Source: a virus
Taxonomy: Duplodnaviria > Caudoviricetes
Direction: 5' to 3' (one strand)
Length of the DNA stretch: 64,000 bases
Virus record (IMG/VR): IMGVR_UViG_3300044627_003892
Both the position numbers and the translations under genes were made by a program. The notes below the pieces were generated by a model. It ran no database searches and was not told the origin of the DNA. It saw nothing but the letters and a program-made list of their open reading frames with translations. Of the stretch, positions 57,535 through 59,196 are shown piece after piece (the first letter of the stretch is position 1; the number at the start of each line of letters is the position of its first letter).

Positions 57535-59196
57535 TCAAACAATTGGTTTATAAAATTTATGATTTCCGATTGTTGTAGTGTATTTTAATTTGGAATAATC
57601 CCAACTTGGTTTAATTGACGTTGTATGGTAAAATTCAGCACCTTTTGTATTATCAGTACCTTTCTTTTTAATATAATTTTTAACAAGGTTTTGAGCGGTT
57701 TCCCAAGCGGAACCATCCTTAGGGTTTTTTAAAATAGATTTATTTATCTTATTTAAAAAATTATCAGTAGTTGTATCATTCCAAATTGAAAATTGTTTTT
57801 TTTGTAAAACAACATCTTTTGGCGATTTTTTTAGACTATCTGCTCTATTTCTAATAACATTTGCAACTGCTTTCATTCCTTCAGAACCTTCTCCTCTAGC
57901 CTCCCCCCATATGGTTGCGGCAACAATTAAATCATCTTTAGTTAAATTGTCTTTTTCTATTGGTTTTATTGTTTTTACCATTTTCTTAGCGCCGTCAATA
58001 ACACCTTCTTTTGATTTATCACTAGCACCCGTCAACTTGTTAACGTCATCCCAAAAAGTATCTGAGTTTTGATTTTGTTTTATACCCATAATTTTATTCA
58101 CATCATCAAAAACTGATTGTTCGTTAACATTTGGTTTTAAAACCGTCATTGCTTCAGGAAAATCTTTATTTAAAACATCTTCGTCTTTATTATCGTAAGG
58201 AATATTTTGTAAAACGTATCTAATTGAATTTAAACCTGAAATTTTCTTATCATTAGAATCTAAAACAACCCAAGGGTGGTTAACTGTTGATGTCTTATCA
58301 AAAAGTTTTTGTTTATACTCTGTGAACTTTTCCCATACATCTTGCATCTTTTCATCATTCTCAGAATACTTCCAATATTTCAATGGTGACTTTTGTCTGA
58401 AATCAAATCTTTTAGCCTGAGTTTCTTTATCTATTGAGAACCAAAGTTTAAATAGATAATCACCATCAACAACCAATGATTCTTCAAAGTCCTGAACATT
58501 ATCCATAAAGTCCTCATACTCTTCTGAAGAACCGTAACCCATTACAGGTTCAACTAAACCTCTATTATACCAACTTCTATCAAAGAAGTTTATCTTACCT
58601 TTCTCAATTTGATTTCTGTATCTATCCCACCAGTTTTTTCTTTCGTCAGGTGTCGGAATGCCAAGAGCAATAACTTTATAATATCTTGGATTTAAGTTTT
58701 CAGTAAACTTTTTAATTGTTGAACCTTTACCTGCTGAATCTCTCCCTTCAAAAACAATAATAACAGTTTTACCTGTTTGTTTTAACCATTCTTGTAATTT
58801 TAAAAGTTCAACCTGTAAGAAAAATATTTCTTTCTTGTAAATGTCTTTATCTAAAATTGACGGTTCCTCTTCGGGACTAACAACTTCTTTTTTAGTTTTT
58901 CTTTTTTCTAATGACTTAGTTAGTTGTTTAAAAAATTCAAAAACATTAATATCCTTATTACCTTTTAATTTCAAAGTTTTTAAAATACCTCTTGTAAGTA
59001 ATCCAAAATCAACTAACCCTTCTTTTGAATATTCTTCAATCTTATTAATAAATTTTTGAATTTGAGCACTATATACTTTGTTGTCTTTTAAAATTGCAAC
59101 GAGAGATTTAACCTCAGGGCTATACTTTGGTTTGTCAGCTTCTGTCAAACCCATATTATTTTTTATCTTACTAACTTCAGTTAATAAATTCCTCAT
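57535..59196 (-). CDS. ppk2: Fusion: polyphosphate kinase 2 domain plus SleB/CwlJ (Hydrolase_2) cell wall hydrolase
   Basis: PPK2: LLKLQEW, VFEGRDSAGKG, FDRSWYNR, KLWFSI, KYWKYS. SleB: TIWGEARGE, AVANVIRNR, QFSIWN, GAEFYH, IGNHKFY. Single open frame. Confidence 0.88.
   Translation of the reverse strand: MRNLLTEVSKIKNNMGLTEADKPKYSPEVKSLVAILKDNKVYSAQIQKFINKIEEYSKEGLVDFGLLTRGILKTLKLKGNKDINVFEFFKQLTKSLEKRKTKKEVVSPEEEPSILDKDIYKKEIFFLQVELLKLQEWLKQTGKTVIIVFEGRDSAGKGSTIKKFTENLNPRYYKVIALGIPTPDERKNWWDRYRNQIEKGKINFFDRSWYNRGLVEPVMGYGSSEEYEDFMDNVQDFEESLVVDGDYLFKLWFSIDKETQAKRFDFRQKSPLKYWKYSENDEKMQDVWEKFTEYKQKLFDKTSTVNHPWVVLDSNDKKISGLNSIRYVLQNIPYDNKDEDVLNKDFPEAMTVLKPNVNEQSVFDDVNKIMGIKQNQNSDTFWDDVNKLTGASDKSKEGVIDGAKKMVKTIKPIEKDNLTKDDLIVAATIWGEARGEGSEGMKAVANVIRNRADSLKKSPKDVVLQKKQFSIWNDTTTDNFLNKINKSILKNPKDGSAWETAQNLVKNYIKKKGTDNTKGAEFYHTTSIKPSWDYSKLKYTTTIGNHKFYKPIV

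What the first reader, a model, noticed from the sequence alone, without database searches (positions are those of the whole stretch)
57535..59196. Polyphosphate kinase 2 fused to a SleB-type cell wall hydrolase, with a capsid-type propeptide and a protease site in the linker
Seen: one 553-aa frame comprising propeptide (LLTE..GLTE), about 100 aa of helical region, a complete PPK2 (EGRDSAGKG near 58723-58750; FDRSWY), a linker with PNVNE-Q and a duplicated DDVNK(I/L)xG, then a Hydrolase_2 domain (WGEARGE near 57890-57915 with catalytic Glu; IGNHKFY). The late motif is 3 nt upstream. Established: PPK2 makes ATP/GTP from polyphosphate; SleB/CwlJ domains are lytic transglycosylases. Inference: a virion polyprotein cut by the prohead protease into an entry muramidase and an injected NTP-regenerating enzyme that taps host polyP at the start of infection. 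I know of no described protein with this architecture.
Basis: partly seen in the sequence, partly recalled or inferred. Interest (0 to 1): 0.85.

Follow-up and report, generated by a model that had tools for sequence, protein, structure and literature searches.

The report
Phage polyphosphate kinase fused to lysin
A large lake-water phage of Bacteroidota encodes one protein that joins a polyphosphate-driven nucleotide kinase to a cell-wall-cutting enzyme, behind a short leader and with protease-type cut sites that suggest both enzymes are loaded into the phage head and delivered to the next host, though this has not been tested.

Summary
Window 57535-59196(-) is one 553-aa frame: leader (1-19), helical extension (20-114), complete class-I-like PPK2 (115-345), disordered linker (360-420) and Hydrolase_2 lysin (421-553). 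It is not a mis-assembly. The identical gene occurs in at least 20 lake metagenome runs, and contigs from four of them bridge the junction.

The window is a T4-like head module (Gp23, Portal_T4, S77 prohead protease, bS21) of the freshwater Bacteroidetes myoviruses of PMC9723584.

Relatives show a modular system:
- The same leader-PPK2 is fused to three different lysin folds.
- It also occurs split into two overlapping genes.
- In some relatives it is precisely deleted, leaving leader-KPNINEQ-lysin.

An [I/V]-x-E site marks every junction and the leader end. INE also sits at the likely capsid-protein maturation site. The same 17-aa leader heads an unrelated 826-aa protein.

Best reading (about 0.5): a capsid-targeted polyprotein cut by the prohead protease into a PPK2 and a lysin that are ejected at infection.

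Main rival (about 0.25): a late endolysin, next to a conserved 2-TM holin-like gene, fused to a cytoplasmic PPK2.

I found no published description. First-reader notes of this scan flagged leader-PPK2 genes in two other genomes; those notes are unchecked.

The parts
57535..59196 (-). Whole gene: 553-aa leader / N-extension / PPK2 / linker / Hydrolase_2 fusion (P0001).
   Evidence: ORF and translation. Pfam domains. Identical or near-identical proteins in independent assemblies. Contigs of 4 runs span it.
59140..59196 (-). Leader, residues 1-19 (MRNLLTEVSKIKNNMGLTE): an amphipathic helix ending in L-T-E. Candidate capsid-targeting propeptide with candidate cuts after E7 and E19.
   Evidence: AF2 predicts a helix at 2-14. 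[LIVM]xE ends at position 19, 20, 21 or 25 in 68 of 76 distinct family N-termini, against 29% background. A leader HMM hits the N-terminus of the unrelated 826-aa ORF at E 3.9e-7.
58855..59139 (-). N-terminal helical extension, residues 20-114. Specific to this phage PPK2 clade; function unknown.
   Evidence: AF2 predicts helices at 27-101 with pLDDT 75-94. Conserved in alignment A1. Residues 51-354 match huge-phage records LR745206 and LR756502 at 45-48% identity. Other phage PPK2s match only from residue 115 onwards.
58162..58854 (-). PPK2 catalytic domain, residues 115-345. Walker A GRDSAGKGS (151-159), Walker B FDRSWYNR (205-212) and the lid R263/R267/K273/W275/K276 are all invariant in the family.
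   Evidence: Pfam PF03976 E 1.6e-70. PDB by sequence: Francisella PPK2 4yeg E 4.5e-65, SMc02148 3czq E 5.9e-59. Foldseek: 5ll0 TM 0.88, 44% identity. Invariant columns.
58114..58137 (-). Module boundary K354-P-N-V-N-E359|Q360-S361: candidate prohead-protease site V-N-E|Q.
   Evidence: Stand-alone PPK2s end at ..VLKP. Fused forms continue with INE|Q, VNE|Q, IGE|S or IEE|Q. PPK2-less forms keep leader + KPNINEQ. pLDDT is below 50 from residue 357.
57937..58119 (-). Linker, residues 360-420, predicted disordered, with the duplicated motif F/W-DDVNK-I/L-x-G (363-371, 382-390).
   Evidence: Sequence. pLDDT below 50 at 357-365 and 370-415. The linker is shared by relatives that carry different lysin folds.
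57538..57936 (-). Hydrolase_2 (SleB/CwlJ-type) cell-wall hydrolase domain, residues 421-553. Candidate catalytic Glu is E432, in WGEARGE.
   Evidence: Pfam PF07486 E 4.6e-19. phrog_938. Alignment to SleB 4f55/4fet, YGESRGE against WGEARGE. pLDDT about 90 or more.
59201..59207 (-). TATTTAT promoter-like motif, 4 nt upstream of the ATG. Shared with the head-module genes.
   Evidence: 26 of 77 ORFs have it on the sense strand within 40 nt upstream, against 7 for the antisense control; these include the scaffold, protease, portal and TerL genes. The same TATTTATCAGTATG stands before the PPK2 gene of a 66%-identical relative.
59245..59270 (-). G+C-rich hairpin followed by a T run (terminator-like), between the upstream 54-aa gene and the fusion gene.
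   Evidence: Read directly from the sequence.
59271..59435 (-). Conserved 54-aa protein with two hydrophobic segments and a charged tail (holin-like). The basis of the endolysin rival.
   Evidence: It is conserved next to the 144-aa gene and upstream of the PPK2/lysin slot in most related loci. It has no holin family hit.
21759..22478 (-). T4 gp21-type prohead protease (Peptidase_S77): the enzyme proposed to cut the fusion.
   Evidence: Pfam PF03420 E 9.4e-27.
18067..19959 (-). Gp23-type major capsid protein. Probable maturation site I58-N59-E60|A61, about 17 residues before the conserved VVFPIIRRVF.
   Evidence: Pfam PF07068 E 1.8e-72. The site is conserved in 5 relatives, and VSE|A stands at the same place in Flavobacterium phage immuto. 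Its equivalence to the T4 gp23 LTE|A cut is from my own memory.
43890..46370 (-). 826-aa protein of unknown function (P0125) that starts with the same leader type (MKKEILSEINRVREIMGLQIISE).
   Evidence: Leader HMM E 3.9e-7. The rest of the protein is unrelated to P0001 (BLASTP best E 0.13). No Pfam, PHROG or Atlas assignment.

Best explanation
The gene encodes a late-expressed polyprotein cargo of the phage head. The proposed mechanism has five steps; all five are inferred.

1. The 19-residue amphipathic leader works like a T4 capsid-targeting sequence and brings the protein into the scaffolding core of the prohead.
2. The phage's gp21-type (S77) prohead protease then cuts after Glu in [L/I/V]-x-E. 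It removes the leader (after E19, perhaps also E7).
3. It also cuts the exposed junction V357-N358-E359|Q360.
4. This yields a free PPK2 of about 340 aa (helical extension plus a class-I-like kinase) and a free lysin of about 194 aa (linker plus Hydrolase_2).
5. Both products leave the head with the DNA at the next infection. The lysin helps to breach peptidoglycan. The PPK2 uses host polyphosphate to turn NDP into NTP in the newly infected cell, probably a Bacteroidota cell.

Shown:
- The fusion is real, and both catalytic domains look intact.
- The architecture is modular. PPK2 is an optional cargo that is present, absent or split in close relatives, and the lysin fold is swapped among relatives.
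- The leader and the junction sites are conserved.
- The protease gene is present in the window.

Inferred: targeting, cleavage, packaging, ejection, and both physiological roles.
For: 1. The window is a T4-like head module: Gp23 capsid protein, Portal_T4, TerL and the Peptidase_S77 prohead protease.

2. In T4, unrelated internal proteins share only a 10-20-residue N-terminal capsid-targeting sequence, and the protease cuts C-terminal to Glu. Giant phages pack many processed ejection proteins (PMC3012670 and PMC5694885).

3. The family leader is conserved at the protein level. An [LIVM]xE ends at position 19-25 in 68 of 76 distinct N-termini, although the residues before it vary in sequence and length.

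4. The same 17-aa leader heads an unrelated 826-aa protein in the window (E 3.9e-7). A similar leader, judged by eye, heads an SLT lysin in a relative whose PPK2 stands alone.

5. Evidence at the junction:
- Stand-alone PPK2s stop at VLKP.
- Every fused form continues with INE|Q, VNE|Q, IGE|S or IEE|Q, whichever lysin fold follows.
- The separately encoded lysozyme of the split form begins MNLVKILRNIILE|Q and is 47% identical to the lysozyme of a fused form.
- So the junction looks like the retained end of the second gene's own leader.

6. PPK2-less alleles keep leader + KPNINEQ + linker + lysin. They look like an in-frame deletion between short repeats (GGTTTG and GTTTTA).

7. INE|A stands at the probable capsid-protein maturation site and is conserved in relatives.

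8. The junction and linker have pLDDT below 50, between two confident domains.

9. TATTTAT lies 4 nt upstream, as it does before the scaffold, protease, portal and TerL genes.

10. The fused lysin is not the only wall hydrolase in relatives. They also carry a leaderless 200-aa Amidase_2, which is a better endolysin candidate, and a leader-bearing Amidase_2 protein of 553-562 aa.

11. More distant Hydrolase_2 relatives carry N-terminal membrane anchors instead of leaders, as secreted endolysins do.
Against: - There is no proteomic, structural or biochemical evidence for packaging or cleavage.
- [LIV]xE is a weak motif (29% of 19-residue windows by chance), and the related sequences are not independent samples.
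- T4-type head proteins are delivered with the DNA through the tail tube into the cytoplasm. There a lysin would be useless unless it is released earlier. I know of head-internal lysins only in podoviruses (T7 gp16).
- A conserved 54-aa two-TM holin-like gene lies just upstream in most relatives.
- PHROGs label the C-terminal domain 'endolysin'.
- Swapping of lysin folds at one locus is also typical of endolysins.
- The relatives' records are incomplete (45-82%), so counts of other lysins are lower bounds.
- No whole genome is held for this window.
Confidence: 0.5

Rival explanations
1. Lysis cassette. The Hydrolase_2 module is the phage's endolysin and works with the upstream 54-aa two-TM protein as holin. 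PPK2 is a late cytoplasmic auxiliary enzyme that became fused to it only because the two genes were adjacent and translationally coupled. The leader has some function other than capsid targeting. Nothing is packaged.
For: - The holin-like 54-aa gene is conserved upstream.
- PHROG endolysin families hit the C-terminal domain.
- Lysin folds are exchanged at one locus, as is common for endolysins.
- In the split form the two genes overlap by TAATG.
- PF00959 and PF07486 occur only at this locus in five large related records.
Against: - The 54-aa protein has no holin family match. It travels with the 144-aa gene rather than with the lysin: about 1 kb, or an opposite-strand gene, can lie between it and the lysin.
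- A terminator-like hairpin and a separate promoter-like motif separate it from the fusion gene.
- Endolysins of Gram-negative hosts rarely carry a non-signal N-terminal leader. Here the leader is shared with an unrelated 826-aa protein and is kept when PPK2 is deleted.
- Relatives have a leaderless 200-aa Amidase_2 that could be the endolysin.
- This reading does not explain the conserved [IV]xE at the junction.
Confidence: 0.25
2. Tail- or baseplate-associated lysin. The lysin module is a virion-associated peptidoglycan hydrolase mounted on the tail, with PPK2 as a passenger domain. The leader and the [IV]xE sites have nothing to do with the head protease.
For: - One of the swapped folds is PF18013, 'Phage tail lysozyme'.
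- The similar-leader SLT lysin of a relative hits baseplate-hub and lytic-tail-protein PHROGs.
- In myoviruses the known entry lysins sit on the tail. This is my own knowledge (T4 gp5).
Against: - The protein has no tail-structural domain: no gp5 OB fold, beta-helix or tape-measure domain.
- The gene lies among small leader-bearing genes beside the head module, not in the tail module.
- The leader and junction pattern fits the head protease's rule and the capsid-protein site.
Confidence: 0.1
3. Artefact. The fusion is a mis-assembly or a recent loss of a stop codon with no biological meaning.
For: A split form with two overlapping genes exists in more distant relatives, so a fusion event did happen at some time.
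Against: - The identical sequence occurs in at least 20 runs.
- Contigs of 4 runs bridge the junction without a difference.
- At least 64 protein clusters at 90% identity are fused forms with an intact frame, spanning 56-100% identity to the query. These are 12 with PF07486, 46 with PF00959 and 6 with PF18013.
- The junction motif is conserved.
Confidence: 0.02

Closest known systems
T4 internal proteins IPI/II/III and Alt: capsid-targeting sequence cargo processed by gp21
   Same: A short N-terminal leader is shared by otherwise unrelated proteins. The cut falls after Glu in a hydrophobic-x-Glu motif. A gp21-family (S77) protease is encoded beside the portal and capsid genes. The cargo is accessory and variable between close relatives (PMC3012670, PMC5694885).
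   Different: The leader sequence differs from T4's. The cargo here would be a two-enzyme polyprotein with an internal cut site. Neither a PPK2 nor a cell-wall hydrolase is a known T4 head cargo. Nothing has been shown experimentally.
Processed ejection proteins of giant phages (phiKZ, 201phi2-1, SPN3US)
   Same: These are large-genome myoviruses with many head proteins cut after Glu by a gp21-like protease. Enzymes such as the virion RNA polymerase are packed in the head and ejected into the host (PMC5694885).
   Different: Their motif is A/S/G-x-E, not [L/I/V]-x-E. Their propeptides are often over 100 residues long. They form a different phage lineage. No PPK2 or lysin polyprotein is reported there in what I read.
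T7 gp16 internal core protein with a lytic transglycosylase domain
   Same: It is a head-internal, ejected protein that carries a peptidoglycan-cleaving domain. This is from my own knowledge. PHROGs has a family 'internal virion protein with endolysin domain', which the relative's SLT lysin hits only marginally (E 0.048).
   Different: T7 is a podovirus. gp16 is a very large channel-forming protein, is not cut by a prohead protease, and has an SLT fold rather than Hydrolase_2.
Class I PPK2 (Francisella tularensis FtPPK2; Sinorhizobium SMc02148)
   Same: Single PPK2 domain, 40-44% identical, with Walker A, Walker B and lid motifs conserved and TM-score 0.88. These enzymes make NTP from NDP and polyphosphate.
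   Different: The phage protein adds a leader, a 95-residue helical extension and a C-terminal lysin. Its activity and substrate preference are untested.
SleB/CwlJ Hydrolase_2 enzymes and phage Hydrolase_2 endolysins (phrog_938; for example Pseudomonas phage PAJU2)
   Same: The full-length PF07486 domain is present, with the GE(A/S)RGE motif aligned to SleB.
   Different: There is no SleB-type peptidoglycan-binding domain. There is no signal or membrane anchor, unlike the more distant phage homologues. It is attached to a kinase.

Membership tests
PPK2 (PF03976), class-I-like | Significant match to the family profile over the whole domain. | tested here: met
   237.7 bits against a cut-off of 22.3; profile positions 2-227 of 229.
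PPK2 (PF03976), class-I-like | Walker A (GxDxxGKG), Walker B (DRS) and the lid arginines and lysines are present. | tested here: met
   GRDSAGKGS, FDRSWYNR, R263, R267, K273, W275 and K276 are invariant in alignment A1 and align with Francisella PPK2.
PPK2 (PF03976), class-I-like | Closest to single-domain class I enzymes rather than class III. | tested here: met
   By sequence: 4yeg E 4.5e-65 and 3czq E 5.9e-59, against class III enzymes (6an9/6au0) at about 5e-19 to 7e-19. Foldseek best hit is 5ll0, TM 0.88. The two-domain PA3455 (3czp) also scores high.
PPK2 (PF03976), class-I-like | Polyphosphate-dependent phosphorylation of NDP. | not testable with these tools
   Needs an enzyme assay.
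Hydrolase_2 (PF07486; SleB/CwlJ) | Significant full-length match to the family profile. | tested here: met
   69.4 bits against a cut-off of 27; profile positions 1-100 of 100.
Hydrolase_2 (PF07486; SleB/CwlJ) | Catalytic Glu of the GE(S/A)RGE motif. | tested here: met
   E432 in WGEARGE aligns with the first Glu of SleB YGESRGE in 4f55 and 4fet. That this Glu is the catalytic residue is from my memory of the SleB structure papers.
Hydrolase_2 (PF07486; SleB/CwlJ) | Muralytic activity. | not testable with these tools
   Needs a zymogram or turbidity assay.
T4-type capsid-targeted, prohead-protease-processed head cargo | A gp21-family protease is encoded in the head module of the same phage. 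| tested here: met
   PF03420 E 9.4e-27 at 21759-22478(-), between the portal and capsid genes.
T4-type capsid-targeted, prohead-protease-processed head cargo | A short N-terminal leader ends in hydrophobic-x-Glu and is conserved in homologues. | tested here: met
   68 of 76 distinct N-termini have it at position 19-25. The leader is a predicted helix.
T4-type capsid-targeted, prohead-protease-processed head cargo | The leader is shared by unrelated proteins of the same phage. | tested here: met
   The 826-aa ORF's N-terminus matches at E 3.9e-7, and the rest of that protein is unrelated. Other leader types occur on neighbouring ORFs.
T4-type capsid-targeted, prohead-protease-processed head cargo | The same cleavage motif stands at the capsid-protein maturation site. 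| tested here: inconclusive
   INE|A lies about 17 residues before the conserved capsid core and is conserved in relatives; immuto has VSE|A. The true cut site is not known.
T4-type capsid-targeted, prohead-protease-processed head cargo | The protein is found in virions with processed N-termini. | not testable with these tools
   No proteome of this uncultured phage group was found.
Endolysin of a holin-endolysin cassette | An adjacent holin. | tested here: inconclusive
   A conserved 54-aa two-TM gene lies upstream. It has no holin family hit and is separated from the fusion gene by a terminator-like hairpin.
Endolysin of a holin-endolysin cassette | It is the only, or the main, wall hydrolase of the phage. 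| tested here: not met
   Relatives also encode a 200-aa Amidase_2, an Amidase_2 protein of 553-562 aa, or an SLT lysin. The records are incomplete.

The most novel reading that the evidence does not exclude
An abundant lineage of freshwater Bacteroidota jumbo phages loads its capsid with a single leader-tagged polyprotein. The prohead protease splits it into a peptidoglycan hydrolase and a polyphosphate kinase 2. The injected PPK2 converts the host's polyphosphate store into NTPs within seconds of infection. This would jump-start transcription and uptake of a genome of about 300 kb in energy-poor cells, or offset nucleotide-depleting defences. It would be the first virion-delivered energy-metabolism enzyme and the first head-packaged lysin in a myovirus.
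Probability: 0.25. Interest if true: 0.85.

Novelty: new variant of a known kind. Interest (0 to 1): 0.62.

Why it matters
Phages are known to inject a few proteins that disarm the host, such as T4 Alt and IPI, or the virion RNA polymerases of giant phages. An injected enzyme that mines the host's polyphosphate for NTPs would be a new class of delivered function. It would link phage infection to phosphorus and energy storage in lakes, where polyphosphate is a major reserve.

The family also gives an unusually clear natural experiment in modular cargo design:
- The same leader and cut site are used with or without PPK2.
- They are combined with at least three unrelated lysin folds.
- The pair occurs as one gene or as two.

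That makes the proposed targeting code directly testable. The leader could be of use for packaging foreign proteins into large capsids. If the endolysin reading is right instead, the finding is a curious but less important domain fusion.

Tried and rejected
- Megablast of 19 kb of the window against 50,697 phage records gave no match. The phage is uncultured. The nearest cultured capsid protein is that of Flavobacterium phage immuto, at 38% identity.
- No whole genome is held for the window. I therefore looked for other lysins only in five related IMG/VR records that are 45-82% complete.
- Literature searches for PPK2 or polyphosphate kinase with phage, lysozyme, virion or jumbo phage found nothing relevant. 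The paper on this phage group (PMC9723584) does not mention polyphosphate in its text or in its held supplements.
- I called the N-terminal half of the relatives' 553-aa Amidase_2 protein, and the window's 323-aa homologue, 'M15-like' from a recalled H..D..H pattern. Pfam gives no support and PHROGs gives only a weak endolysin hit (E 0.009). I do not claim it.
- The 826-aa leader-sharing protein got no assignment from Pfam, PHROGs or the ESM Atlas.
- The unknown C-terminal modules of P0013, P0040 and P0090 have no Pfam match, so a fourth lysin fold is not shown.
- TATTTAT is not over-represented in the window as a whole (63 found against 53.5 expected). Only its placement upstream of genes is non-random.
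- A phmmer search of the C-terminal domain against the PDB gives only weak SleB matches (E 0.016). The domain assignment rests on Pfam.
- I did not run a complex prediction of protease with substrate. A negative result would be uninformative, and the tool reports scores, not cleavage geometry.
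Full report
**1. The observation**

Window 57535-59196(-) is a single open frame of 553 aa.
- Pfam finds a complete PPK2 domain at residues 115-338 (E 1.6e-70) and a complete Hydrolase_2 domain at 435-549 (E 4.6e-19).
- PHROGs calls the C-terminal part an endolysin (phrog_938).
- TATTTAT lies 4 nt before the ATG.

**2. It is not an artefact**
- The identical 1662 nt occur in at least 20 lake-water metagenome runs.
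- Contigs from four of these runs cover the PPK2-linker-lysin junction (about nt 58120) without a single difference. The only contig breaks lie at about 58550-58580, inside the PPK2 domain, at a strain variant.
- A protein search found 10 further 90%-identity clusters with the same architecture at 81-100% identity, and two at 58-59% identity, from JGI, ENA, NCBI and Logan assemblies.

**3. What the window is**

GC content is about 0.29. The window carries a T4-type head module:
- Gp23 capsid protein, 18067-19959(-);
- an acidic scaffold-like protein, 19989-21419(-);
- Peptidase_S77 prohead protease, 21759-22478(-);
- Portal_T4, 23948-25804(-);
- TerL, 27313-29058(-).

A bS21 gene lies on the opposite strand inside this module (23034-23219). 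That arrangement is the hallmark of the bS21-encoding myoviruses of freshwater Bacteroidetes, up to 331 kb, described in PMC9723584. The nearest cultured capsid protein is that of Flavobacterium phage immuto, at 38% identity. No whole genome is held for the window, and there is no close DNA match among 50,697 phage records.

**4. The family is modular**

This is the main new result. Among the best 120 relatives, the leader, the N-extension and PPK2 are highly conserved up to FPEAMTVLKP (residues 346-355). After that the sequences diverge.

(a) Stand-alone PPK2s of 355-374 aa stop at VLKP, or two to six residues later.

(b) Fused forms continue with a linker and one of three unrelated lysin folds: Hydrolase_2 (12 clusters), Phage_lysozyme PF00959 (46 clusters) or Phage_lysozyme2 PF18013 (6 clusters). 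Others carry C-terminal modules that have no Pfam match.

(c) In a 66%-identical relative (L001-L003), PPK2 ends ..ILKPEN-stop. A 298-aa PF00959 lysozyme gene overlaps it by TAATG, in the same gene neighbourhood as the window: a 105-106-aa gene, DUF6878 and DUF6915 downstream, and an FKBP gene upstream. That lysozyme is 47% identical to the lysozyme module of a fused form (E 4e-44).

(d) In close relatives (L038-L040; flanks 78-91% identical in DNA), the same slot holds a 200-aa gene. It reads MRNLLTEVSKMKNMMGL-KPNINEQS-linker-Hydrolase_2. Residues 18-353 (N-extension plus PPK2) are absent, and the leader is joined in frame to the junction. The DNA shows short repeats at the two breakpoints, GGTTTG and GTTTTA, as expected for a deletion. 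Such PPK2-less leader-lysins are widespread, with either Hydrolase_2 or PF00959 modules.

So PPK2 is an optional cargo, the lysin fold is interchangeable, and the leader and the KP-x-[IV]-x-E-Q junction are the constant parts.

**5. The leader and the sites**

- The leader. The family N-terminus follows the pattern M-x-x-[LI]-[LI]-[STN]-E-[IV]-x-[RK]-x-x-x-[LM]-[LM]-G and is a predicted helix. After it the sequences vary in length and composition. Even so, 68 of 76 distinct N-termini have an [LIVM]-x-E ending at position 19, 20, 21 or 25, usually followed by A, D, E, S or G. The background is 29% per 19-residue window. The sequences are related, so this is a pattern, not a P-value.

- The junction. 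All fused forms keep [IV]-x-E: INE|Q, VNE|Q, IGE|S or IEE|Q. The separately encoded lysozyme begins MNLVKILRNIILE|Q. The junction therefore looks like the retained end of the second gene's own leader.

- The capsid protein. It has HLINE|ASST about 17 residues before its conserved core. This is conserved in five relatives, and immuto has IVSE|ANV at the same place. From memory, T4 gp23 is cut at LTE|A at the equivalent position.

- Shared leaders. A 17-residue HMM of the PPK2 leader finds exactly one other ORF in the window, the 826-aa P0125 (E 3.9e-7). The rest of that protein is unrelated and unassigned. Neighbouring ORFs carry other leader types, such as MKKVVRLSESELTRLIKTVVKE, MKRINLTENDIFNIVNKVIAEE and MKKFIITESQLEYIVKRHINED. 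Other Hydrolase_2 relatives carry short leaders of these types directly on the catalytic domain. More distant ones have N-terminal membrane anchors instead.

**6. Structure**

The AlphaFold2 model built on a 62-sequence alignment has mean pLDDT 78:
- leader helix 2-14;
- a confident helical extension at 27-101;
- the PPK2 core;
- pLDDT below 50 at 357-365 and 370-415;
- a confident Hydrolase_2 domain at 420-553.

The candidate junction cut therefore lies at the start of a flexible segment between two folded domains.

For the PPK2 part, Foldseek's best match is Francisella PPK2 (class I), with TM-score 0.88 and 44% identity. Sequence searches agree (4yeg E 4.5e-65, 3czq E 5.9e-59) and show Walker A, Walker B and lid residues conserved. 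For the lysin, E432 of WGEARGE aligns with the first Glu of SleB YGESRGE. Both enzymes look catalytically intact.

**7. Timing**

TATTTAT on the sense strand lies within 40 nt upstream of 26 of 77 ORFs. The antisense control gives 7. The 26 include the scaffold, protease, portal and TerL genes, the 826-aa gene and the fusion gene. The same TATTTATCAGTATG precedes PPK2 in the 66%-identical relative. This fits co-expression with the head genes, which the published metatranscriptomes place late (PMC9723584). Transcription of this particular gene was not measured.

**8. Other lysins in relatives**

I searched five large related IMG/VR records (133-242 kb, 45-82% complete).
- PF00959 occurs only in the PPK2 fusion itself, and PF07486 is absent.
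- There is a leaderless 200-aa Amidase_2 gene.
- There is a leader-bearing protein of 553-562 aa with an Amidase_2 domain. Its linkers carry GFEIFGY(N/K)VDDI(I/L)(N/D)KI repeats that recall the DDVNK(I/L) repeats here.
- In the record whose PPK2 stands alone there is a 263-aa SLT lysin that starts, by eye, with a similar leader.
- The window itself has a leader-bearing 323-aa homologue of the N-terminal half of the Amidase_2 protein, at 38791-39762(-).

Several leader-tagged wall hydrolases per genome, one of them large and multi-domain, look more like virion-associated hydrolases than like a Gram-negative endolysin.

**9. Interpretation**

T4 internal proteins share only a 10-20-residue capsid-targeting sequence and are cut after Glu by gp21. 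Giant phages pack dozens of processed ejection proteins, enzymes among them (PMC3012670, PMC5694885).

The features here match that logic: a gp21-type protease, shared short leaders ending in hydrophobic-x-Glu, the same motif at an exposed inter-domain junction and at the capsid-protein site, late-type promoters, and accessory presence or absence.

I therefore favour a head-targeted polyprotein that the prohead protease cuts into a PPK2 of about 340 aa and a lysin of about 194 aa, both ejected at infection (confidence about 0.5). What the PPK2 does after delivery is inference. Options are NTP regeneration from host polyphosphate to start infection, relief of nucleotide depletion, or removal of polyphosphate as a stress signal.

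**10. Rivals**

- Endolysin in a lysis cassette (about 0.25). A conserved 54-aa protein with two hydrophobic segments and a charged tail lies just upstream (59271-59435). The lysin could therefore be the endolysin of a lysis cassette, fused by chance to a late cytoplasmic PPK2. Against this:
  - the small protein has no holin family match;
  - it is separated from the fusion gene by a terminator-like hairpin and a separate promoter motif;
  - other genes can lie between it and the lysin;
  - this reading explains neither the leader nor the junction site.
- Tail-mounted lysin (about 0.1).
- Assembly artefact: excluded for practical purposes.
- A general weakness of the favoured reading is that T4-type head cargo is thought to enter the cytoplasm, where a lysin is useless unless it is released earlier. 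I know of no head-packaged lysin in a myovirus.

**11. Novelty**

The kind of system, leader-targeted and protease-processed head cargo, is known. New elements would be the cargo (a PPK2), the polyprotein arrangement with a lysin, and the natural series of fused, split and deleted forms. I found no description in the searchable literature. Source databases label these proteins simply 'polyphosphate kinase 2'.

First-reader notes of this scan had flagged the leaders and the TATTTAT motif in this genome, and leader-PPK2 genes in two other genomes. I treated these as leads and tested the parts that concern this gene.

Noticed in passing
window 59271-59435 (-): A conserved 54-aa protein with two hydrophobic segments and a charged C-terminal tail (holin-like). 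The 125-aa ORF listed at 59271-59648 is an over-extension of it: in L038 the upstream part is in another frame. It always follows the 144-aa leader-plus-TM gene (59515-59949).
   Followed up: partly
window 43890-46370 (-) and 46383-49370 (-): Two very large ORFs (826 and 995 aa) with no Pfam or PHROG match. The first starts with the same leader as the PPK2 family. They are candidates for large internal or ejected virion proteins.
   Followed up: partly
window-wide, e.g. 59201-59207, 57526-57532, 43878-43884, 27336-27342 (-): The TATTTAT motif often ends only 4-9 nt before the ATG (12 of the 26 cases). If it is a -10-like late promoter element, many late mRNAs would be leaderless or nearly so. 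This is interesting beside the phage-encoded bS21.
   Followed up: partly
window 23034-23219 (+): A 61-aa ORF on the opposite strand inside the head module, which first-reader notes of this scan call bS21. I did not scan it against a protein family. The position matches the bS21-encoding freshwater Bacteroidetes phages of PMC9723584.
   Followed up: partly
window 38791-39762 (-): A 323-aa protein with a leader (..EVISEIKKLRNVLLEE) and a Lys/Glu-rich repetitive tail. It is 44% identical to the N-terminal half of the relatives' 553-aa Amidase_2 protein. The listed 390-aa ORF probably starts too early. It overlaps the tmRNA call.
   Followed up: partly
L042:774-2435 (+), L044:722-2410 (-): Relatives encode a leader-bearing protein of 553-562 aa with an Amidase_2 domain. 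It has two copies of a linker repeat, ESQKELVSK..DGFEIFGY(N/K)VDDI(I/L)(N/D)KI..PQFESEQ, whose DD(V/I)xxKI core recalls the DDVNK(I/L) repeats of the PPK2-lysin linker. This may be a shared docking motif.
   Followed up: no
window 38379-38761 (+) and 41259-41333 (-): A phage-encoded tmRNA (tag AKLSTLGLIRTEEVTVA) and a tRNA-Arg(TCT).
   Followed up: no
window 18067-19959 (-): The capsid protein is 630 aa. The Gp23 Pfam match covers mainly residues 364-617. There is a Gly/Ser/Thr-rich insertion of about 250 residues (about 100-350) whose length varies among relatives (603-630 aa).
   Followed up: no
L009, L011, L017, L018, L021 (about 8945-10000): In several relatives about 1 kb is inserted between the 54-aa gene and the PPK2-lysin gene. 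In L001 and L003 a tRNA-synt_2-like gene on the opposite strand sits there. The slot is a hot spot for insertions.
   Followed up: no
window 61674-62105 (+), 62170-62703 (+): An FKBP-type peptidyl-prolyl isomerase and a pyrimidine-dimer DNA glycosylase-like gene (Pyr_excise) flank the leader-gene cluster. The FKBP gene keeps its position in the 66%-identical relative.
   Followed up: no
L052 (LR745206.1, about 143.8-144.8 kb): A 634-kb huge phage has a stand-alone PPK2 with a long N-terminal extension, homologous to residues 51-354 here (47.6% identity). It ends ..VVTVIK with no lysin. A possible start reads MPVYNFHKFINEE.
   Followed up: partly
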